A DNA stretch of 9,554 nucleotides. It comes from a virus. Its lineage: Duplodnaviria > Heunggongvirae > Uroviricota > Caudoviricetes. A model generated the notes under the pieces. It was not told where the DNA came from. It did no database searches and saw nothing but the letters and a program-made list of their open reading frames with translations. Shown in pieces: positions 3,238 to 9,554 of the stretch. The translations under genes were made by a program, and so were the position numbers. The DNA is taken from IMG/VR virus record IMGVR_UViG_2681813261_000028. One strand, given 5' to 3'. Position 1 is the stretch's first letter; the number at the start of each line of letters is the position of its first letter.

Positions 3238-3509
3238 GTATTCGTATTGAAATTGGCGAACGTTATGTCGTTACCAGTGACAGCTTCCAGTTTATTCTCC
3301 ACGAGAAAAAGAGAGCGGAAAGCGGTAAAAACGCCGGTCAGGAATGGCTGGCGGTGGTTGGTTATTACCCGAAATTAAGCCAGCTCGTTTCCGGCCTGAT
3401 GCATCACGATATTCTGACCGGAAGCGCAAAGTCTTTTGCTGATTTAAACGCGCAGGTTGAGCAACTCAGCAAGCGTTGTTCAGAGGCTTTTGGCTCATAT
3501 GGCCGTTAA
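3234..3509 (+). CDS. Hypothetical early-operon protein (position of P2 orf83)
   Basis: 91 aa, ATG 3234 with GGAG at 3224..3227. Stop TAA at 3507..3509, overlapping the start of gene A by 11 nt. Confidence 0.5.
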   Translation: MSIRIEIGERYVVTSDSFQFILHEKKRAESGKNAGQEWLAVVGYYPKLSQLVSGLMHHDILTGSAKSFADLNAQVEQLSKRCSEAFGSYGR

Positions 3510-5796
3510 AGCCTCCGGGCGTTTTGTCCCTCCGTCAGCATTTGCTGCAGGCACCGGTAAGGCGTTTACCGGTGCTTATGCATGGAACGCGCCACGCGAG
3601 GCTGTCGGGCGCGAAAGACCCCTTACACGTGACGAGATGCGTCAGGTGCAAGGTGTTTTATCCACGATTAACCGCCTGCCTTACTTTTTGCGCTCGCTGT
3701 TTACGTCACGCTATGACTACATCCGGCGCAATAAAAGCCCGGTGCACGGGTTTTATTTCCTCACATCCACTTTTCAGCGTCGTTTATGGCCGCGCATTGA
3801 GCGTGTGAATCAGCGCCATGAAATGAACACCGACGCGTCGATGCTGTTTCTGGCTGAGCGTGACCACTATGCGCGCCTGCCGGGAATGAATGACAAGGAG
3901 CTGAAAAAGTTTGCCGCCCGTATCTCATCGCAGCTTTTCATGATGTATGAGGAACTCAGCGATGCCTGGGTGGATGCGCATGGCGAAAAAGAATCGCTGT
4001 TTACGGATGAGGCGCAGGCTCACCTCTATGGTCATGTTGCTGGCGCTGCACGTGCTTTCAATATTTCCCCTCTCTACTGGAAAAAATACCGTAAAGGACA
4101 GATGACCACGAGGCAGGCATATTCTGCCATTGCCCGTCTGTTTAACGATGAGTGGTGGATTAGTCAGCTTAAAGGCCAGCGTATGCGCTGGCATGAGGCG
4201 TTACTGATTGCTGTCGGGGAGGTCAATAAAGACCGTTCTCCTTATGCCAGTAAACATGCCATTCGTGATGTGCGTGCACGCCGCCAGGCAAATCTGGAAT
4301 TTCTTAAATCGTGTGATCTCGAAAACAGGGAAACAGGCGAGCGCATCGACCTTATCAGTAAGGTGATGGGCAGTATTTCTAATCCTGAAATTCGCCGGAT
4401 GGAGCTGATGAACACCATTGCCGGTATTGAGCGTTACGCCGCCGCAGAAGGTGATGTGGGGATGTTTATCACGCTGACCGCGCCGTCAAAGTATCACCCG
4501 ACACGTCAGGTTGGAAAAGGCGAAAGTAAAACCGTCCAGCTAAATCACGGCTGGAACGATGAGGCATTTAATCCAAAGGATGCGCAGCGTTATCTCTGCC
4601 GTATCTGGAGCCTGATGCGCACGGCATTCAAGGATAATGATTTACAGGTCTACGGTTTGCGAGTCGTCGAGCCACACCACGACGGAACGCCGCACTGGCA
4701 TATGATGCTTTTTTGTAATCCACGCCAGCGTAACCAGATTATCGAAATCATGCGTCGCTACGCGCTCAAAGAGGATGGCGACGAAAGAGGAGCTGCGCGA
4801 AACCGTTTTCAGGCAAAACATCTTAATCGGGGCGGTGCTGCGGGGTATATCGCGAAATACATCTCAAAAAATATCGACGGCTATGCACTGGATGGGCAGC
4901 TCGATAACGATAGCGGCAGACCGCTGAAAGATACTGCCGCGGCTGTTACCGCATGGGCGTCAACGTGGCGCATTCCGCAATTTAAAACGGTTGGCCTGCC
5001 GACAATGGGGGCTTACCGTGAACTACGCAAATTGCCTCGCGGCGTCAGCATTGCTGATGAGTTTGACGAGCGCGTCGAGGCTGCACGCGCCGCCGCAGAC
5101 AGTGGTGATTTTGCGCTGTATATCAGCGCGCAGGGTGGGGCAAATGTCCCGCGCGATTGTCAGACTGTCAGGGTCGCCCGTAGTCCGTCGGATGAAGTTA
5201 ACGAGTACGAGGAAGAAGTCGAGAGAGTGGTCGGCATTTACGCGCCGCATCTCGGCGCGCGTCATATTCATATCACCAGAACGACGGACTGGCGCATTGT
5301 TCCGAAAGTGCCGGTCGTTGAGCCTTTGACTTTAAAAAGCGGCATCGCCGCGCCTCGGAGTCCTGTCAATAACTGTGGAAAGCTCACTGGTGGTGATACT
5401 TCGTTACCGGCTCCCACACCTTCTGAGCACGCCGCAGCAGTGCTTAATCTGGTAGATGACGGTGTTATCGAATGGAATGACCCGGAGGTTGTGAGGGCGC
5501 TCAGAGGTGCATTAAAACACGGACTGAGAAGACCAAACCGTCAGCAAAGAAACGGAAGCCCGTTAAAACCGCATGAAATAGCGCCATCGGCCAGACTGAC
5601 CCGGTCGGAACGAATGCAAATTACCCGTATCCGCGTTGACCTTGCTCAGAACGGTATCAGGCCGCAGCGATGGGAGCTTGAGGTGCTGGCGCGTGGGGCA
5701 ACCGTAAATTATGACGGGAAAAAATTCACTTACCCGCTCGCTGATGAGTGGTCGGGATTCTCAACAGTATTAGAGTCAAACTCAGTGAAGCGTTAA
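3499..5796 (+). CDS. A: Rolling-circle replication initiator / replication endonuclease (P2 gpA family, HUH superfamily)
   Basis: Long ORF, stop TAA 5794..5796. HUH metal-binding motif HWHMML at 4693..4710 and tandem-tyrosine motif YIAKY at 4846..4860, the two signatures of phiX174/P2-type initiators. ATG 3499 is preferred (765 aa) over the ORF-track TTG at 3457 (779 aa); the N-terminus then reads MAVKASGRFVPP. Confidence 0.9.
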   Translation: MAVKASGRFVPPSAFAAGTGKAFTGAYAWNAPREAVGRERPLTRDEMRQVQGVLSTINRLPYFLRSLFTSRYDYIRRNKSPVHGFYFLTSTFQRRLWPRIERVNQRHEMNTDASMLFLAERDHYARLPGMNDKELKKFAARISSQLFMMYEELSDAWVDAHGEKESLFTDEAQAHLYGHVAGAARAFNISPLYWKKYRKGQMTTRQAYSAIARLFNDEWWISQLKGQRMRWHEALLIAVGEVNKDRSPYASKHAIRDVRARRQANLEFLKSCDLENRETGERIDLISKVMGSISNPEIRRMELMNTIAGIERYAAAEGDVGMFITLTAPSKYHPTRQVGKGESKTVQLNHGWNDEAFNPKDAQRYLCRIWSLMRTAFKDNDLQVYGLRVVEPHHDGTPHWHMMLFCNPRQRNQIIEIMRRYALKEDGDERGAARNRFQAKHLNRGGAAGYIAKYISKNIDGYALDGQLDNDSGRPLKDTAAAVTAWASTWRIPQFKTVGLPTMGAYRELRKLPRGVSIADEFDERVEAARAAADSGDFALYISAQGGANVPRDCQTVRVARSPSDEVNEYEEEVERVVGIYAPHLGARHIHITRTTDWRIVPKVPVVEPLTLKSGIAAPRSPVNNCGKLTGGDTSLPAPTPSEHAAAVLNLVDDGVIEWNDPEVVRALRGALKHGLRRPNRQQRNGSPLKPHEIAPSARLTRSERMQITRIRVDLAQNGIRPQRWELEVLARGATVNYDGKKFTYPLADEWSGFSTVLESNSVKR

Positions 5797-5882
5797 CTCA
5801 ATAAATATGAGTTTATAAGTTAGGCCTCGAGATTTTGTAGAAAGGGATGTATACTGAGTATCGTATAGATTTGGAGTGAGTG

Positions 5883-6905
5883 ATGACTGTAAAGGTGATA
5901 GACCTTTTTTGTGGTGCTGGCGGATTAACTCATGGTTTGCAGCTTGCGGGGCTTGATGTCGTTGCAGGCATTGACCTTGAGGGGGAATGTAGGTTTCCCT
6001 ATGAAAGAAACAATAAATCTAAGTTTATTGAGCAAGATATCGCTAAAGTAACAAAAGAGGAACTGCTGAGGCTTTATGGTGATGCGTCTGTAAAAGTATT
6101 GGCAGGATGCGCACCTTGCCAACCTTTTTCAAAATATACTCAAGGAAAAGATAAGGCTGATGATAAAAAATGGCCTCTTCTTTATGAGTTCGAACGTTTA
6201 ATTCGCGAAGTATCTCCAGAAATCGTAACAATGGAGAACGTTCCTGATGTAACTAAACATAAAGTTTATAATGATTTTTATAATTCATTGTTAAAGTTGG
6301 GCTATTATGTTTGGGCGTCTAAGATTGATTGTGTCGAATATGGAATCCCACAAAACCGTTCCCGTCATGTATTGTTGGCCTCAAAATTGGGGGCGATTGA
6401 GTTAGTAAAACGTGACGATGTTATTTTGAAAACAGTTAGAGATGCAATAGGAAATCTTCCTCCATTAGAAGATGGCCAAACAGATCCAAATGATATATTA
6501 CATAGAGCCAGTAAATTAAATCCGATTAATAAAAAAAGAATTATACACTCTGTTCCTGGTGGTACATGGAAGGACTGGCCGAAAGAGTTGGTTGCCGCTT
6601 GTCATATGAAATCCAGCGGTAAAGGGTATGCTAGTGTATATGGGCGCATGTCTTGGGATAAGCCAAGTCCAACAATTACAACTCTTTGTTATGGTTTCGG
6701 GAATGGGCGTTTTGGACATCCAGAACAGCATAGAGCGATTTCTCTTAGAGAGGCTGCTTTATTGCAAACTTTCCCGATGGATTATATTTTTGTAGAAGAC
6801 AAAAACAAGTTTGTTATAAGAAGTATTGGGAAAATGATAGGTAATGCTGTTCCTGTGGAACTAGGAAAAGCAATTGGGCAATCAATCAAGAACCATTTAG
6901 AATGA
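5883..6905 (+). CDS. DNA (cytosine-5)-methyltransferase
   Basis: 340 aa from ATG 5883 (GGAG at 5873..5876); the ORF-track start 5880 is GTG. Canonical C5-MTase motifs are in order: motif I DLFCGAGG, motif IV catalytic GCAPCQPFS, motif VI TMENVPDV, motif VIII QNRSRHVLLA, motif X GNAVPVELG. The variable region between VIII and X is short, suggesting a short recognition site. Stop TGA at 6903..6905. Confidence 0.9.
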   Translation: MTVKVIDLFCGAGGLTHGLQLAGLDVVAGIDLEGECRFPYERNNKSKFIEQDIAKVTKEELLRLYGDASVKVLAGCAPCQPFSKYTQGKDKADDKKWPLLYEFERLIREVSPEIVTMENVPDVTKHKVYNDFYNSLLKLGYYVWASKIDCVEYGIPQNRSRHVLLASKLGAIELVKRDDVILKTVRDAIGNLPPLEDGQTDPNDILHRASKLNPINKKRIIHSVPGGTWKDWPKELVAACHMKSSGKGYASVYGRMSWDKPSPTITTLCYGFGNGRFGHPEQHRAISLREAALLQTFPMDYIFVEDKNKFVIRSIGKMIGNAVPVELGKAIGQSIKNHLE

Positions 6906-6909
6906 TAAA

Positions 6910-6930
6910 ATGGCCTGCTTTACAGGCCTT
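6910..6930. terminator. Putative bidirectional intrinsic terminator between convergent genes
   Basis: Perfect 6-bp stem GGCCTG (6912..6917) / CAGGCC (6923..6928) with 5-nt loop CTTTA. It sits in the 29-bp gap between the MTase stop (6905) and the minus-strand gene stop (6935), with A/T-rich flanks on both sides. The stem is short, so strength is uncertain. Confidence 0.45.
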
Positions 6931-6934
6931 ATAA

Positions 6935-7181
6935 CTATTGTTCTAAATATTCATTATTATTTATATAGTGCTCTATATTATTCACGATAGCATCAAGATA
7001 GGCGATTACTTCTAATGAAATATTCTCTAAGTCCTGATATGAAACATTTTTTCCAATCTCAGCAAATGATACATTGCCATGAGATAAATCATTACGATGT
7101 TGTTTAACAGTGGCTAATTTTTCACCATGTTTAGTGTGAGTGTAATCGGAATGTGTAGAAAAACCATATATTTTCGATTTT
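6935..7181 (-). CDS. C-terminal segment of a HEPN-like protein (Rx4H motif); start lost in N-run
   Basis: Minus-strand frame open from the N-run (7182) to stop TAG (complement of 6935..6937), 82 codons. Contains ...VKQHRNDLSHGNVSF... with R at 7094..7096 and H at 7079..7081, matching the HEPN RNase motif R-x4-H. This frame differs from the upstream segment 7215..7652, so both are probably one gene whose frame is hidden by the gap. Confidence 0.5.
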
Positions 7182-7652
7182 NNNNNNNNNNNNNNNNNNN
7201 NNNNNNNNNNNNNNTTTTTCTTTGATTTCCTCTCTATCAATATTTCCTGAGAATATTTTCTTTTTGTTGAACGTGCCATAAGATATACCGCAAGATATAC
7301 CTTTGGTAAGGTGATTAACTAAACTTTCAACATTTACAGATTCATTTTTTAATCTTTTTAATATTTCTGACCTGAGATTTTTCCTGAGTTTGTCAAATTC
7401 TACGTTTCTATCATAAATAGTCTCATGAATAAGGCAGATAGCTTCTCTCATTGTTGATTCAATGAGGTTATATAACAGTATATATACTGCTCCCTTTAGA
7501 GTTTTTCGTGATTGAGCAGTAATGGAGAACTTATGTTCTTTATCATCAGCTGATATCAGTTCTGCACCGGCATACTCAATAAATTTCAAAAGATCCAAAT
7601 AGGCCAAGATCTCTCCTGACCTTTCGTCAAAATCCTCACGAAAACGATCCAT
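7131..7652 (-). CDS. N-terminal segment of the DUF262-partner protein (same gene as 6935..7181 if the gap hides a frame change)
   Basis: ATG at 7650..7652 (complement) lies 1 nt after the DUF262 stop (TAAcATG), indicating an operon. Read literally through the 33 N it runs to a stop at 7131 (173 aa); only 7215..7652 is real sequence. The protein looks helical and charged, with no catalytic motif upstream of the gap. Confidence 0.6.
   Translation of the reverse strand: MDRFREDFDERSGEILAYLDLLKFIEYAGAELISADDKEHKFSITAQSRKTLKGAVYILLYNLIESTMREAICLIHETIYDRNVEFDKLRKNLRSEILKRLKNESVNVESLVNHLTKGISCGISYGTFNKKKIFSGNIDREEIKEKXXXXXXXXXXXKIENIWFFYTFRLHSH
7182..7214. other. Run of 33 N (assembly gap or masked bases)
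   Basis: 33 consecutive n characters seen directly in the sequence, inside the small minus-strand gene. Confidence 0.97.
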
Positions 7653-7653
7653 G

Positions 7654-8796
7654 TTAATCCTCTAATAATTTATCCCGAACATATTCAATTCGTTCAATTA
7701 CCTTCACGCGACTATTAGCTCCGTCGGAAGTGGTCAATCGTTTGAATTCTTCTGAGCTTAGCCAATCTAAGTTCTTGGGAACAAGGTCAGGGACTTCACG
7801 TAATGCAAGTGCTGCGCCAACAGCGAGAGATTCGAATCTAACTCGAGGTGTAGATTTTGCAGTAATAGTTTTCTTGAATCCTGCTGGGAAATAGTTTTCA
7901 ACAAAAGATAGAACATTAGCAAACTCTTGTTTCATTGAGTTTTGTTTAGTTTCGTCTATATCTCGATTTTCTGACATATAGTCATTTAGAAAATCCCGTA
8001 CGGAATGATCAAAGTTCTTGTACTTATCTACGTAGGCAAAGAATCTTAATGTAAATTCTAACCGTTCATCTCGTTTTTCTTTAGTCTGAGATAAAGGTGC
8101 TAATTCTTTAAATTTAGGTATTGTTGAGCATGGCTTAATAACCTGTGTATATAAATTTGTTGAACCAAGTTCTGATCCTTTACGGACTTCCATATCTTTC
8201 AATATATCGCTGCCAGAGTTAATACGCTCAAAAAGATCTCTACGGGTTTCTTCATTGCATTTAGAACTCAATTCTATAACGCGGACAGGAATTCTCATGA
8301 AACGACGTTGACGTGATAATGGTAAATCTTGGAATTTGAAACCATTAAGGACGTCTAAAGATTTCAGGTCTTGTAAAACTAATTCATTTTGGATAAAAGC
8401 GTGTATAGTCCTAACTCGTTGTGAGCCATCAACAATCTCAATTCGCCCATCTAAATCGGGATCTTCGGAGAGAACATCTGCTATAAATATATATGGTATA
8501 GGAAAACCCAAAATCAAAGACTCTATCAATTTTGATTGTCTTTTTTCACTCCAAACAAAATCCCTTTGATAATCAGGAACAAAGAGTTCGTTAGTATCAT
8601 CCTCTAATCCGTTATGATACTTATTAACTAATAACTCAACGGTAAATTCTTTGGTCTCAAAATCCACATCCTTTTGCTCAGCACGAATTTGCTCTTCAGC
8701 GTTTTGCTTTATCACCTCTAGCTGAGCAAGCAACTCTGCTCTTTTCTTGGCATTATCTTCATTTTCTAGTTGAGATTTTAAATCAATAATGTCCAT
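7654..8796 (-). CDS. DUF262-domain protein (ParB/Srx-like NTPase fold, GmrSD N-terminal-domain family) without a nuclease domain
   Basis: 380 aa from ATG 8794..8796 (AAGGGA 8 nt upstream on the minus strand); the ORF-track start 8814 is TTG. DUF262 signature motifs are present: VPDYQRDFVW and IVDGSQRVRTI (the DGQQR box). No HNH/DUF1524-type His-rich motif in the C-terminal third. Stop TAA at 7654..7656. Confidence 0.85.
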   Translation of the reverse strand: MDIIDLKSQLENEDNAKKRAELLAQLEVIKQNAEEQIRAEQKDVDFETKEFTVELLVNKYHNGLEDDTNELFVPDYQRDFVWSEKRQSKLIESLILGFPIPYIFIADVLSEDPDLDGRIEIVDGSQRVRTIHAFIQNELVLQDLKSLDVLNGFKFQDLPLSRQRRFMRIPVRVIELSSKCNEETRRDLFERINSGSDILKDMEVRKGSELGSTNLYTQVIKPCSTIPKFKELAPLSQTKEKRDERLEFTLRFFAYVDKYKNFDHSVRDFLNDYMSENRDIDETKQNSMKQEFANVLSFVENYFPAGFKKTITAKSTPRVRFESLAVGAALALREVPDLVPKNLDWLSSEEFKRLTTSDGANSRVKVIERIEYVRDKLLED

Positions 8797-8981
8797 GTCT
8801 AGTTCCCTTAACAAGTGTTAAAAATTGAAGCGGATAGCATACCGCATAGATCATGAAAAATGCCATCATGTGCATGGATTTGCATGCGTCAGAAGTCGCT
8901 TTTATTGTTAGTTATCACTAGCGCTGGCGTGCTCTTGGAGTGTTCATGCAACTGCATTAAAACCGCCCCATGAAGCGGGCG

Positions 8982-9000
8982 GGCGAGGCGGGGAAAGCAC
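8982..9000. other. Phage cohesive-end (cos) site, P2-type 19-mer
   Basis: GGCGAGGCGGGGAAAGCAC at 8982..9000 matches the 19-nt cohesive end of P2 as I recall it (from memory, not searched). It lies in a GC-rich non-coding stretch between the cargo island and the 3' end of the portal-like gene, where cos sits in a P2 prophage. Confidence 0.6.
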
Positions 9001-9140
9001 TGCGCGCTGGCGGTGGTGCTGATTTTATTTTCCAGCGTCTCAGCGCGTCGTGACGGCGCTTAGTCTGCCCGTTGGGCGTTGGTGTGTCTGCGGGATTTTT
9101 TGTGCGGTGATGAGCGTGTGAGGGCGTGATGGCGGGGTGT

Positions 9141-9162
9141 AAAAAAGCCGCCCGCAGGCGGC
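9141..9162 (-). terminator. Intrinsic terminator downstream of the portal-like gene
   Basis: On the minus strand, 5 nt after the stop at 9168..9170: stem GCCGCC/GGCGGC (9147..9152 and 9157..9162) with 4-nt loop, followed by a T6 tract (A6 on the plus strand at 9141..9146). Confidence 0.65.
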
Positions 9163-9167
9163 GATGT

Positions 9168-9554
9168 TCAGCCGTTGTCAGTGTCCAGTGAGTAGTTTTT
9201 AAAGCGGATGACCTCCTGACCGAGCCAGCCGTTTATCTCGCGGATCCTGTCCTGTAACGGGATAAGCTCATTGCGGACAAAGACCTTTGCCACTTTCTCA
9301 ATATCACCCAGCGACCCGACGTTCTCCGGCTTGCCCCCCATCAACTGAAAGGGGATGCGGTGCGCGTCCAGCAGGTCAGCGGCGCTGGCTTTTTTGATAT
9401 TAAAAAAATCGTCCTTCGTTGCCACTTCACTGAGCGGGATAATTTTAATGCCGTCGGCTTTCCCCTGTGGGGCATAGAGAAACAGATTTTTAAAGTTATT
9501 GCGGCCTTTGCAAAATGGCATCTGAATCGATCGCAGTTTGGCATTCGAATCGAT
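9168..9554 (-). CDS. Q: Portal-like capsid protein, C-terminal part (5' end outside the window)
   Basis: Minus-strand frame is open from the window edge (9554) to stop TGA (complement of 9168..9170); no stop between 9522 and 9554, so the ORF-track Met at 9521 is internal. Assignment to P2 gpQ rests on position (leftward gene with its 3' end next to cos) and is unverified. Confidence 0.55.
   Translation of the reverse strand: MDSNAKLRSIQMPFCKGRNNFKNLFLYAPQGKADGIKIIPLSEVATKDDFFNIKKASAADLLDAHRIPFQLMGGKPENVGSLGDIEKVAKVFVRNELIPLQDRIREINGWLGQEVIRFKNYSLDTDNG

What the first reader, a model, noticed from the sequence alone, without database searches (positions are those of the whole stretch)
5883..6905. 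Solitary C5 cytosine methyltransferase with no cognate endonuclease, convergent with the DUF262/HEPN pair
All canonical m5C-MTase motifs are present and the gene is intact, but no restriction endonuclease is recognisable in the window. It may be a phage self-protection (anti-restriction) methylase, or it may be functionally tied to the convergent DUF262/HEPN genes, for example by marking self DNA or the sensed modification. DUF262 proteins elsewhere act on modified DNA, so co-residence with a methylase in one 3 kb island is notable.
Basis: partly seen in the sequence, partly recalled or inferred. Interest (0 to 1): 0.6.

Follow-up and report, generated by a model that had tools for sequence, protein, structure and literature searches.

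The report
Methylase partnered with DUF262–HEPN defence pair
The "lone" cytosine methylase in this P2-like prophage is one third of a conserved three-gene cassette (methylase, DUF262 DNA sensor, HEPN nuclease) that looks like a restriction-modification system with an unusual killing arm; it was noticed computationally in 2013 but has never been tested.

Summary
An intact 340-aa C5-cytosine methyltransferase lies at 5883-6905 (+) (Pfam E=3e-58, all catalytic motifs). It is convergent with a DUF262 gene (7654-8796, -) and a MAE_28990-type HEPN gene (6935-7652, -). All three sit in the gpA/cos defence hotspot of a P2-like prophage, and no canonical restriction endonuclease is present.

The label "solitary" does not hold. 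Starting from the HEPN protein, DUF262 lies immediately upstream in all 87 loci examined. An orthologous methylase is adjacent in 42 of them, across Proteobacteria, Cyanobacteria, Bacteroidota, Acidobacteriota and Planctomycetota. Three different gene orders occur, and the 3' ends usually overlap. Methylase and DUF262 divergence track each other (r=0.96). The methylase-less pairs found form derived cyanobacterial clades.

Starting from the methylase, close orthologues carry the pair. More distant members of the same lineage carry SNF2 helicase, MORC-like ATPase, Vsr or PLD modules in the same slot. DUF262+HEPN therefore occupies the restriction position of an R-M-like module.

The mechanism is inferred: m5C marks self, the DUF262 NTPase reads it (as DndI and SspE read phosphorothioate), and HEPN is the effector.

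This neighbourhood was listed by Anantharaman et al. (2013), and I found no experimental work. It is a new variant of a known kind, of moderate interest. The HEPN gene in this window is broken by a 33-N run, probably an assembly gap.

The parts
5883..6905 (+). C5-cytosine DNA methyltransferase (340 aa). Proposed modification (self-marking) component.
   Evidence: PF00145 E=3.4e-58. PADLOC DrmMII E=1.2e-90 and MTase_II E=6.7e-89. Motifs I, IV, VI, VIII and X are intact and family-conserved. N-terminal half resembles M.HaeIII; residues 210-338 resemble the DNMT1 catalytic C-terminal region.
6912..6928 (.). 7-bp GC-rich hairpin (GGCCTGTAAAGCAGGCC) in the 29-nt spacer between the convergent MTase and HEPN stop codons. 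Terminator-like, possibly bidirectional.
   Evidence: Terminator scan; the region has 7 such sites against 2.1±1.7 expected. In 26 of 36 related convergent loci there is no spacer at all and the 3' ends overlap (median -4 nt).
6935..7652 (-). HEPN nuclease of the MAE_28990 family (226 aa when intact). Proposed effector. Broken in this window by the N-run.
7182..7214 (.). Run of 33 N inside the HEPN gene. Together with 4 duplicated T it forms a 37-nt insertion relative to intact homologues. Most likely a scaffold gap or mask, not biology.
   Evidence: Alignment with E. coli L001 and IMG/VR L093. Repair test.
7654..8796 (-). DUF262 (ParB-like NTPase) protein with a helical C-terminal domain and no nuclease domain (380 aa). 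Proposed DNA or modification sensor. Its stop codon lies 1 nt before the HEPN ATG, so the two form an operon.

Best explanation
The methylase is the modification component of a compact three-gene, restriction-modification-like defence (and probably addiction) cassette carried in the gpA/cos hotspot of a P2-like prophage. It is not an orphan.

Shown by comparative genomics: MTase, DUF262 and HEPN(MAE_28990) form one co-inherited module. DUF262+HEPN occupies the slot that, next to sister methylases, is filled by other restriction-type modules (SNF2 helicase, MORC-like ATPase, PLD).

Inferred mechanism, in four steps. (1) The MTase places m5C at a still unknown short motif on host and prophage DNA. 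(2) The DUF262 protein (ParB-like NTPase plus helical DNA-binding domain, no nuclease domain) scans DNA. As in the phosphorothioate readers DndI and SspE, the modification tells it to hydrolyse NTP and let go of self DNA. (3) On unmodified incoming DNA it stays engaged and switches on the HEPN partner, which is co-translated from the same operon. (4) The HEPN Rx4H nuclease, an RNase by family precedent, cuts RNA (or possibly nucleic acid at the bound site) and stops phage growth, likely as an abortive-infection outcome.

A side effect is that loss of the cassette, or of the methylase alone, could be harmful, which would help stabilise the prophage.
For: 1. Linkage from the HEPN side. There are 482 relatives in GTDB representative genomes. 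In the 80 best loci plus 7 others, DUF262 is immediately upstream in all 87. An orthologous m5C MTase is adjacent in 42: 39 convergent, 2 upstream co-directional, 1 downstream co-directional.
2. In the DUF262+HEPN tree, every proteobacterial, Bacteroidota, Acidobacteriota and Planctomycetota locus with enough flank has the MTase, as does one large cyanobacterial clade. The MTase-less loci in this sample (the 80 best of 482, mostly cyanobacteria) are derived cyanobacterial clades next to housekeeping genes.
3. Co-divergence. Pairwise identity of MTase against DUF262 gives r=0.96, and MTase against HEPN gives r=0.90.
4. Non-phage contexts carry the same architecture: Vibrio jasicida, Brasilonema and Pseudomonas sp. 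OIL-1.
5. From the MTase side, 3 of 3 looked-up orthologues at 64-72% identity carry the pair, as do 11 of 13 IMG/VR orthologues and the Moraxella Mcat phages (Mcat30 locus checked). Three gene orders occur in metagenomes, including overlapping MT>DUF262>HEPN operons.
6. The 3' ends overlap in 26 of 36 convergent trios.
7. Slot equivalence. MTases nested inside the same clade are flanked instead by SNF2 helicase, MORC-like ATPase with or without Vsr, PLD or paraMORC3, including at the same P2 hotspot in phage PhiR44_1.
8. Catalytic motifs of all three proteins are conserved family-wide.
9. Structure. The HEPN fold matches RNase toxins. The DUF262 model matches BrxU, SspE and DndI without a nuclease domain.
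10. Precedent. DndI and SspE are DUF262 proteins coupled to a host modification module; modification sensing stimulates the NTPase and spares self DNA (PMC11662687; PMC12707154).
11. Literature. [quoted passage not shown]
12. One PADLOC 'Type II REase' model (PDLC03418) hits the DUF262 domain at E=9e-6.
Against: There is no experimental evidence for any step.

The DUF262+HEPN pair can exist without an adjacent methylase. About half of the sampled loci, all cyanobacterial, lack it and mostly look intact. The validated two-gene relative PD-T4-2 protects E. coli K-12 when cloned without any methylase (PMC9519451, Table S2).

Two loci show a damaged methylase next to intact partners: Peduovirus P24B2 has a frameshift and Dolichospermum L019 has only a remnant. 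This argues against strict lethality of the pair without the methylase, although sequencing errors or a second methylase elsewhere are possible.

From the methylase side, only 20-22 of about 62 judgeable metagenomic relatives at 52-61% identity carry the pair, so the methylase lineage is not exclusive to this system.

HEPN domains are usually RNases, so 'restriction' of unmethylated DNA cannot be the simple DNA cleavage of a Type II system.

In this very window the HEPN ORF is interrupted by Ns, so its integrity here is unproven.
Confidence: 0.6

Rival explanations
1. Two-layer system of the PrrC/EcoprrI type, the model of Anantharaman et al. 2013. MTase plus DUF262 (taken as a ParB-fold DNase) form a conventional R-M pair that cuts unmethylated DNA. 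The HEPN RNase is a latent back-up held inactive by that complex, and it is released for suicidal RNA cleavage only when a phage anti-restriction factor disables the R-M layer.
For: The proposal is made explicitly for HEPN families linked to R-M genes (PMC3710099). DUF262 belongs to the ParB nuclease superfamily, and a PADLOC 'REase_II' model hits it. HEPN and DUF262 are translationally coupled, which is compatible with a complex. The linkage evidence for the three genes is the same as for the main model.
Against: In every characterised DUF262 protein (GmrSD, BrxU, SspE, DndI) the DUF262 domain is the NTPase/sensor, and cleavage is done by a separate DUF1524 His-Me domain, which is absent here. 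The conserved motifs are the NTPase motifs. No DNase-type active site was identified in the C-terminal helical domain.
Confidence: 0.2
2. Independent neighbours. The methylase is a true orphan that protects P2 and host DNA from other restriction systems, or has an epigenetic role. DUF262+HEPN is a self-sufficient PD-T4-2-like defence pair. They sit together only because defence and anti-defence genes accumulate in the same hotspot and move together.
For: PD-T4-2 works without a methylase. Many cyanobacterial pairs lack an adjacent methylase. The methylase lineage combines with several other modules. P24B2 and L019 show damaged methylases beside intact partners. Menshen loci are also often next to methylases of unclear relevance (PMC12065111).
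Against: Adjacency is kept across five phyla, in three gene orders, outside phages and outside P2 hotspots, usually with overlapping coding ends. Divergence of the methylase tracks that of DUF262 with r=0.96. All proteobacterial loci with enough flank keep the methylase. Random hotspot co-residence would not always bring the same methylase lineage.
Confidence: 0.13
3. Modification-dependent (Type IV-like) reading. DUF262/HEPN attacks DNA carrying a foreign cytosine modification (hmC, glc-hmC or another m5C pattern), as GmrSD and BrxU do. The methylase is unrelated to its targeting, or acts as an offensive 'marking' enzyme on incoming DNA (Pgl-like reverse R-M).
For: DUF262 proteins of the GmrSD/BrxU family restrict modified DNA, and BrxU also acts on m5C DNA in vitro (PMC12707154). 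PD-T4-2 was selected on T4, which has glc-hmC DNA. The best structural match is BrxU.
Against: A resident m5C methylase beside an m5C-dependent killer would be self-destructive unless the specificities differ, and stable co-inheritance of one methylase lineage would then be unexplained. Sister methylases pair with Vsr, SNF2, PLD and MORC modules, which is typical of modification-protects-self systems.
Confidence: 0.07

Closest known systems
MAE_28990-family HEPN / ParB nuclease / DNA methylase gene neighbourhood (Anantharaman, Makarova, Burroughs, Koonin, Aravind 2013, Biol Direct 8:15, Table 1)
   Same: Same three components. HEPN matches PF18737, DUF262/ParB is adjacent, and a DNA methylase is adjacent. 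The window's cassette is a member of this computationally defined neighbourhood.
   Different: That description is one table line with no experiment, no named system and no phage context. This report adds the distribution, gene orders, co-divergence, the methylase-less subclade, the swappable partners of the methylase and the P2-hotspot location.
PD-T4-2 (Vassallo et al. 2022; E. coli ECOR65; DUF262 + HEPN; validated against T4)
   Same: A DUF262 protein of similar size followed by a HEPN gene. The PADLOC PD-T4-2_A model hits the window's DUF262 at E=2.5e-35.
   Different: PD-T4-2 spans only 1,540 bp for both genes and was cloned and is active without a methylase. Its HEPN is assigned to PF18735, and the PD-T4-2_B model does not hit the 226-aa MAE_28990 HEPN even at E<=1.
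Menshen (NsnABC; Millman et al. 2022; Li et al. 2025, NAR gkaf357)
   Same: The DUF262 protein is NsnA-like over its full length (E=1.7e-54, ParB-DUF262 plus helical ParBDB-type domain). [quoted passage not shown] For the methylases that lack a nearby nuclease, the authors raise the possibility that DUF262 targets unmodified DNA.
   Different: There is no NsnB ABC-ATPase and no NsnC inPIN effector. Here a HEPN protein directly follows the sensor.
Phosphorothioate-sensing DUF262 systems: SspABCD-SspE and IscS-DndBCDE-DndI
   Different: The mark would be m5C made by a single methylase rather than a backbone phosphorothioate. The effector is a separate HEPN protein rather than a fused DUF1524 His-Me nickase.
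GmrSD / BrxU Type IV restriction enzymes
   Different: No DUF1524 nuclease domain. These enzymes attack modified DNA and have no partner methylase.
PrrC-EcoprrI (HEPN anticodon nuclease guarded by a Type Ic R-M system)
   Same: A HEPN RNase is genetically embedded in a methylase-containing restriction locus, giving a possible link between DNA-level self/non-self discrimination and RNA cleavage.
   Different: No Type I HsdMSR subunits and no ABC-ATPase domain on the HEPN protein. The trigger is unknown.
Non-canonical m5C R-M-like modules: DISARM class 2 (DrmMII), Dcm+paraMORC3, Dcm+Vsr+MORC (Iyer et al. 2008)
   Same: The same methylase lineage. The best PADLOC hit is DrmMII at E=1.2e-90. Sister methylases at 53-68% identity are flanked by SNF2 helicase, MORC-like ATPase, Vsr or PLD, and by paraMORC3 at the very same P2 hotspot.
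   Different: The window contains none of these partner genes. DUF262+HEPN takes their place.
Classical Type II restriction-modification system
   Same: A convergent, tightly packed methylase/'killer' gene arrangement that is mobile and carried by a prophage.
   Different: No recognisable Type II endonuclease fold. The candidate killing arm is a two-protein NTPase plus HEPN module.

Membership tests
C5-cytosine DNA methyltransferase (PF00145 / TIGR00675) | Full-length profile match above the curated cutoff | tested here: met
   PF00145 198 bits against cutoff 22. TIGR00675 130 bits against cutoff 100.65.
C5-cytosine DNA methyltransferase (PF00145 / TIGR00675) | Catalytic motifs I (FxGxG), IV (PCQ with catalytic Cys), VI (ENV), VIII (QxRxR) and X (GNAVP) | tested here: met
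   DLFCGAGG, GCAPCQPFS, TMENVP, QNRSR and GNAVP are read in the sequence and are conserved in 38 orthologues.
C5-cytosine DNA methyltransferase (PF00145 / TIGR00675) | Methylation activity and a defined target motif | not testable with these tools
   No REBASE and no methylome data. The frequent Vsr partners of sister methylases suggest real m5C formation in the lineage.
Orphan (solitary) methyltransferase | No conserved, functionally linked partner genes | tested here: not met
   DUF262+HEPN is adjacent in all close orthologues examined and in 11 of 13 IMG/VR orthologues. Conserved across phyla.
MAE_28990 HEPN / ParB / methylase neighbourhood (Anantharaman 2013) | HEPN protein of the MAE_28990 family with an intact Rx4-6H motif | tested here: met
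MAE_28990 HEPN / ParB / methylase neighbourhood (Anantharaman 2013) | Adjacent ParB-superfamily (DUF262) gene and adjacent DNA methylase gene | tested here: met
   Window gene map. The same arrangement is found in 42 of 87 related loci.
PD-T4-2 | PD-T4-2_A (DUF262) homologue | tested here: met
   PADLOC PDLC04027, E=2.5e-35, residues 79-378.
PD-T4-2 | PD-T4-2_B (HEPN) homologue | tested here: not met
   No PADLOC model hits the intact 226-aa HEPN at E<=1.
Menshen (NsnABC) | NsnA-like ParB-DUF262 + ParBDB protein | tested here: met
   PADLOC NsnA, E=1.7e-54, residues 17-380 against model positions 25-376 of 385.
Menshen (NsnABC) | NsnB ABC-ATPase and NsnC effector immediately downstream | tested here: not met
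   Only the HEPN gene follows DUF262. No ATPase ORF lies between gpA and cos.
GmrSD / BrxU / SspE / DndI family | DUF262 N-terminal NTPase domain with the DGxQR motif | tested here: met
GmrSD / BrxU / SspE / DndI family | C-terminal DUF1524 His-Me nuclease domain | tested here: not met
Type II restriction-modification system | Recognisable restriction endonuclease next to the methylase | tested here: not met
   There are no REase Pfam, NCBIfam or PADLOC hits, apart from one weak REase_II model (PDLC03418, E=9e-6) that matches the DUF262 domain itself.
DISARM class 2 | DrmMII-type methylase | tested here: met
   PADLOC PDLC02651, E=1.2e-90, full length.
DISARM class 2 | DrmA helicase, DrmB (DUF1998) and DrmC (PLD) genes | tested here: not met
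   Absent from the window. SNF2 and PLD genes do flank sister methylases elsewhere.
P2-like prophage defence hotspot #1 (tin/old locus) | Cargo located between replication gene A and cos/portal gene Q | tested here: met
   gpA lies at 3457-5796 (PF05840, E=2e-123) and the portal C-terminus at 9168-9521. The same position is seen in annotated E. coli prophages. The hotspot is described in PMC9519451. GC drops from about 0.55 to 0.29-0.40.

The most novel reading that the evidence does not exclude
This would be an epigenetically gated abortive-infection system. A single m5C methylase writes the self mark. A ParB-like DUF262 NTPase reads the methylation state of DNA. Instead of cutting DNA, it licenses a HEPN RNase, so that 'restriction' of unmethylated invaders is carried out at the RNA level. 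It would be a cytosine-methylation counterpart of the phosphorothioate-sensing SspE and DndI systems. It would also be one example of a wider rule in which one methylase lineage serves interchangeable read-out modules (DUF262+HEPN, MORC, SNF2/PLD).
Probability: 0.35. Interest if true: 0.75.

Novelty: new variant of a known kind. Interest (0 to 1): 0.55.

Why it matters
If the model is right, this small cassette joins two ideas that are usually kept apart. One is restriction-modification, where a DNA mark discriminates self from non-self. The other is HEPN-type abortive infection, where RNA is cleaved. It would also extend the 'DUF262 reads a host modification' principle from phosphorothioate to ordinary 5-methylcytosine.

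The cassette is only about 3 kb. It occurs in E. coli, Klebsiella, Salmonella, Yersinia, Moraxella, Vibrio and many cyanobacteria, and it rides on P2-like prophages, so it is easy to test in E. coli K-12.

The result has a practical consequence for annotation. Prophage 'orphan' Dcm-like methylases next to DUF262/HEPN, MORC or SNF2 genes should not be scored as solitary or anti-restriction methylases. PADLOC v2 has no model that hits this HEPN protein, so the three genes are unlikely to be called as one system.

The methylase-less cyanobacterial clades and the validated methylase-less PD-T4-2 offer a natural comparison for asking what the methylase adds.

Tried and rejected
1. Target specificity of the methylase could not be determined. 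There is no REBASE access. PDB relatives (M.HaeIII, the DNMT1 catalytic C-terminal region, M.HhaI) are too distant in the target-recognition region. Source names are generic. Full-text searches for the RefSeq accessions and for MAE_289xx locus tags found nothing.
2. The promoter scan was not informative. It found 8 sites against 12.2±3.5 expected. A weak TCGAGA-17-TATACT lies at 5827-5855 upstream of the MTase.
3. Rfam found no RNA families in the window. Repeat search found only short chance-level repeats.
4. NCBIfam has no model for the DUF262 or HEPN proteins. PHROGs places them in phrog_2598 and phrog_3846, both 'unknown function'.
5. A Tn-seq paper mentioning essential prophage methylases (PMC13566846) turned out to concern MvaI and SmaI systems, not this one. 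The Rousset 2022, DefensePredictor, HEC and WASA papers do not describe this trio.
6. I first thought the methylase lineage might be exclusive to the trio. The metagenome scan rejected this, because most 52-61% relatives have other partners, and I revised the idea to 'shared methylase, swappable partner'.
7. I tested whether 'methylase-less' cyanobacterial loci hide another methylase type next door. They do not; the neighbours are acnB, clpB, cobN, glyS and Uma2.
8. I considered that the HEPN break in the window is a real pseudogene. A scaffold gap is more likely, because the flanks abut exactly with a 4-T overlap.
Full report
**Setting**

The window is the early-gene arm of a P2-like prophage. 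It carries integrase (1-1011, -), C-type repressor, cox, B and replication gene A (3457-5796, PF05840 E=2e-123). At the far end is the C-terminus of the portal gene Q (9168-9521, -). Annotated E. coli prophages with the same layout confirm these assignments.

Between gene A and the cos site (GGCGAGGCGGGGAAAGCAC at 8982-9000; the P2 cos sequence is from my own recollection) lies a 3-kb island. Its G+C falls from about 0.55 to 0.29-0.40. This is the tin/old position, described as P2 defence hotspot #1 (PMC9519451).

**Checking the observation**

ORF 5883-6905 (+) encodes a 340-aa protein. It matches PF00145 end to end (E=3.4e-58) and TIGR00675 (E=1.5e-37). Motifs I, IV, VI, VIII and X are readable in the sequence and conserved in orthologues.

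Two genes lie convergent to it.
- A DUF262/GmrSD_N protein at 7654-8796 (-). RefSeq uses the ATG at 8796. The NTPase motifs YQRDFVW, DGSQR and FERIN are intact.
- A HEPN protein of the MAE_28990 family at 6935-7652 (-), carrying the Rx4H motif HRNDLSHG.

The DUF262 stop codon lies 1 nt before the HEPN ATG, so these two genes form an operon. A 7-bp GC hairpin (6912-6928) sits in the 29-nt spacer between the MTase and HEPN stops. No classical restriction endonuclease is detectable in the window.

One caveat concerns this copy. The HEPN ORF is split by 33 N (7182-7214) plus four extra T relative to E. coli and IMG/VR homologues. Deleting these 37 nt restores a 681-nt ORF that is 219/226 aa identical to the E. 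coli protein. Because the flanks abut exactly with a TTTT overlap, I read this as a scaffold gap or mask rather than a real disruption. It cannot be proven from the window.

**Is the methylase solitary? Evidence from the HEPN side**

I tested this by asking whether the three genes travel together elsewhere. The HEPN protein has 113 clustered homologues, down to 33% identity, in Enterobacterales, Vibrio and cyanobacteria.

- In Vibrio jasicida the cassette lies in a chromosomal island beside a resolvase. In Brasilonema it lies near a XisA element. Both show the same arrangement, DUF262 > HEPN > < MTase, with no phage genes around.
- A scan of one genome per GTDB species found 482 relatives.
- DUF262 is directly upstream of HEPN in all 87 loci.
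- An m5C methylase is adjacent in 42. Of these, 39 are convergent, 2 are upstream and co-directional (Pyrinomonadaceae, Pirellulaceae) and 1 is downstream and co-directional (Bacteroidales).
- These methylases are all orthologous to the window's, with 47-97% pairwise identity (median 57%). Their divergence tracks that of DUF262 (r=0.96) and of HEPN (r=0.90). This correlation shows co-inheritance as a unit, not physical interaction.
- In the DUF262+HEPN tree, all non-cyanobacterial lineages and one large cyanobacterial clade carry the methylase. The methylase-less loci in this sample form derived cyanobacterial clades at fixed chromosomal positions next to acnB, clpB or cobN. Some have a truncated DUF262.
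- In 26 of 36 convergent trios the MTase and HEPN coding regions overlap at their 3' ends (median -4 nt).

**Evidence from the methylase side**

Methylase orthologues chosen without reference to their neighbours also carry the pair.
- E. coli P0163 (71% identity, more than 160 contigs) sits in the P2 hotspot with the pair.
- Klebsiella P0148 (72% identity) sits in a P2/186-like hotspot with the pair.
- Pseudomonas sp. OIL-1 P0201 (64% identity) is chromosomal, with an Mrr-like gene about 4 kb away, and has the pair.
- In IMG/VR, 11 of 13 orthologues have the pair.
- Among isolated phages, Peduovirus P24B2 and the Moraxella Mcat phage examined (Mcat30; Mcat24-32 carry the same MTase hit) have it.
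- In complete E. coli genomes the cassette is rare: three sequence variants in 9, 4 and 3 of 5,426 genomes, always at this hotspot and always as a trio.

A metagenome scan gave an important correction. Among 80 relatives at 52-88% identity, 20 are trios and 2 are cut by contig ends. About 40 judgeable loci lack DUF262/HEPN. Their neighbours are SNF2-family helicases (19 loci), Vsr (17), MORC-like GHKL ATPases (13), a PLD nuclease and a NERD-helicase.

In a methylase tree, the MORC-, Vsr- and SNF2-partnered enzymes nest inside the trio clade. In the P2-like phage PhiR44_1, the same hotspot holds a 55%-identical 'Dcm' convergent with 'paraMORC3'.

The metagenomic trios show three gene orders: the convergent one, an overlapping MT>DUF262>HEPN operon (10 loci), and DUF262>HEPN>MT.

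The picture is one methylase lineage with interchangeable partner modules. DUF262+HEPN is one of those modules, and it sits in the slot that other restriction-type machinery occupies elsewhere. MORC and paraMORC proteins with cytosine methylases and Vsr were predicted to be R-M components in 2008 (PMC2292703). The best PADLOC hit for the window's methylase is DrmMII of DISARM.

**What the partner proteins are**

- **HEPN protein.** It models confidently (pLDDT 89.7). Its best structural neighbours are HEPN RNase toxins: SO_3166, TT1696, HEPN/MNT and Csm6. No PADLOC model recognises it. PHROGs lists both partner proteins as 'unknown function'.

**Mechanism**

What is shown is the genetic coupling and the domain identities. 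What follows is inference.

The closest working precedents are the phosphorothioate systems. SspE and DndI are DUF262 proteins coupled to a host modification module. For DndI, PT sensing stimulates the ATPase, changes the conformation and releases the protein from self DNA, while PT-free phage DNA is attacked (PMC11662687). SspE arrests growth without its modification module (PMC12707154).

By analogy I propose three roles. The methylase writes m5C on self DNA. The DUF262 NTPase reads it and disengages. On unmethylated DNA it activates the co-translated HEPN nuclease, most likely an RNase, giving an abortive or translation-arrest outcome. I put 0.6 on this module-level model. The bare claim that the three genes are functionally linked deserves about 0.85.

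**Rival explanations**

- The main rival is the 2013 proposal (PMC3710099). There, ParB is the restriction DNase and HEPN is a PrrC-like back-up released when the R-M layer is inhibited (0.2).
- Independent co-residence (0.13) is kept alive by four facts: the validated methylase-less PD-T4-2 (1,540 bp, cloned alone), the intact methylase-less cyanobacterial pairs, the frameshifted methylase in P24B2, and the methylase remnant in L019.
- A Type IV-like reading (0.07) is hard to reconcile with stable co-inheritance of a resident m5C methylase.

**Comparison with known systems and novelty**

The cassette meets every feature of the 'MAE_28990 HEPN / ParB / methylase' neighbourhood, which is listed in one table line by Anantharaman et al. 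(2013). It fails membership of the other candidates:
- PD-T4-2, because there is no PD-T4-2_B match and a methylase is present.
- Menshen, because there is no NsnB or NsnC.
- GmrSD, BrxU and SspE, because there is no DUF1524 domain.
- Type II R-M, because there is no REase.
- DISARM, because there is no DrmABC.

The only paper in the searchable library that names the HEPN family is that 2013 analysis. I found no experimental work on the trio. I therefore class it as a new variant of a known kind, namely DUF262-based and R-M-like defence. It has been predicted but not characterised.

Interest is moderate (0.55). The locus is not strange in composition. However, an m5C-gated DUF262-to-HEPN pathway would be a new way to couple epigenetic self-marking to RNA-level immunity, and it is directly testable in E. 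coli.

Noticed in passing
window 7182-7214: A run of 33 N lies inside the HEPN gene. Together with 4 duplicated T it forms a 37-nt insertion relative to E. coli and IMG/VR homologues and breaks the reading frame. The flanks abut exactly, so it looks like a scaffold gap or mask.
   Followed up: yes
window 8982-9000 (and 8815-9167): The sequence GGCGAGGCGGGGAAAGCAC, which I recall as the P2 cohesive-end (cos) sequence, lies between the DUF262 gene and the portal gene. GC-rich terminator-like hairpins lie at 8963-8982 and 9147-9162. The low-GC island (0.29-0.40) is therefore inserted exactly between gene A and cos.
   Followed up: partly
L107 (Peduovirus P24B2, NC_049387) 3863-5045: In this isolated P2-like phage the orthologous methylase (73% identity) is split into two frames near profile position 230, while the HEPN and DUF262 genes are intact. 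It is either a sequencing error or a natural case of the pair surviving without its methylase.
   Followed up: partly
L109 (Escherichia phage PhiR44_1, PV340563) 4004-7052: The same gpA/portal hotspot holds a 55%-identical 'Dcm' methylase convergent with a 652-aa 'ParaMORC3' gene in place of DUF262+HEPN. The methylase lineage is the same and the partner module differs.
   Followed up: partly
L103 6016-8569; L105 6059-9229; L110-L189 (metagenome loci): Sister methylases (52-61% identity) are flanked by SNF2-family helicases of about 1,100 aa (19 loci), Vsr (17), MORC-like HATPase_c_3 proteins (13), a PLD nuclease and a NERD-helicase. Two further neighbour families (446-aa and 186-aa representatives) have no Pfam match.
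   Followed up: partly
L053, L070, L075, L076, L079 (Microcoleus / Oscillatoriales) about 5295-5870; L029-L031, L046, L058 etc.: Methylase-less DUF262+HEPN pairs in cyanobacteria sit at fixed positions next to housekeeping genes (clpB, acnB, cobN). In several Microcoleus/Oscillatoriales genomes the DUF262 ORF is reduced to about 190 codons while HEPN stays full length.
   Followed up: partly
L019 6713-6988 (Dolichospermum MAG) versus L018: Only a 276-nt remnant of the methylase remains next to intact DUF262 and HEPN genes, and the sister genome (Aphanizomenon) has none. This may be a snapshot of methylase loss.
   Followed up: no
L132, L134, L157, L175, L189 (metagenome contigs): Co-directional MT>DUF262>HEPN operons are preceded, about 1.3 kb upstream, by a second m5C methylase homologue. 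This suggests two-methylase versions of the system.
   Followed up: no
L002 (E. coli GN04592) 3950-4957 and 7245-7909: The 89%-identical variant of the cassette sits in a P2-like prophage that also carries a PAPS-reductase-family gene upstream of gene A, and a DUF3850/ASCH gene plus a small ORF between gene A and the methylase. These genes are absent from the window.
   Followed up: no
L003 7846-8244 (Vibrio jasicida); L005 7944-9362 (Brasilonema): Outside phages the cassette lies next to site-specific recombinases: a resolvase in Vibrio and a XisA/XisC-type recombinase near nif genes in Brasilonema. This hints at other mobile carriers.
   Followed up: no
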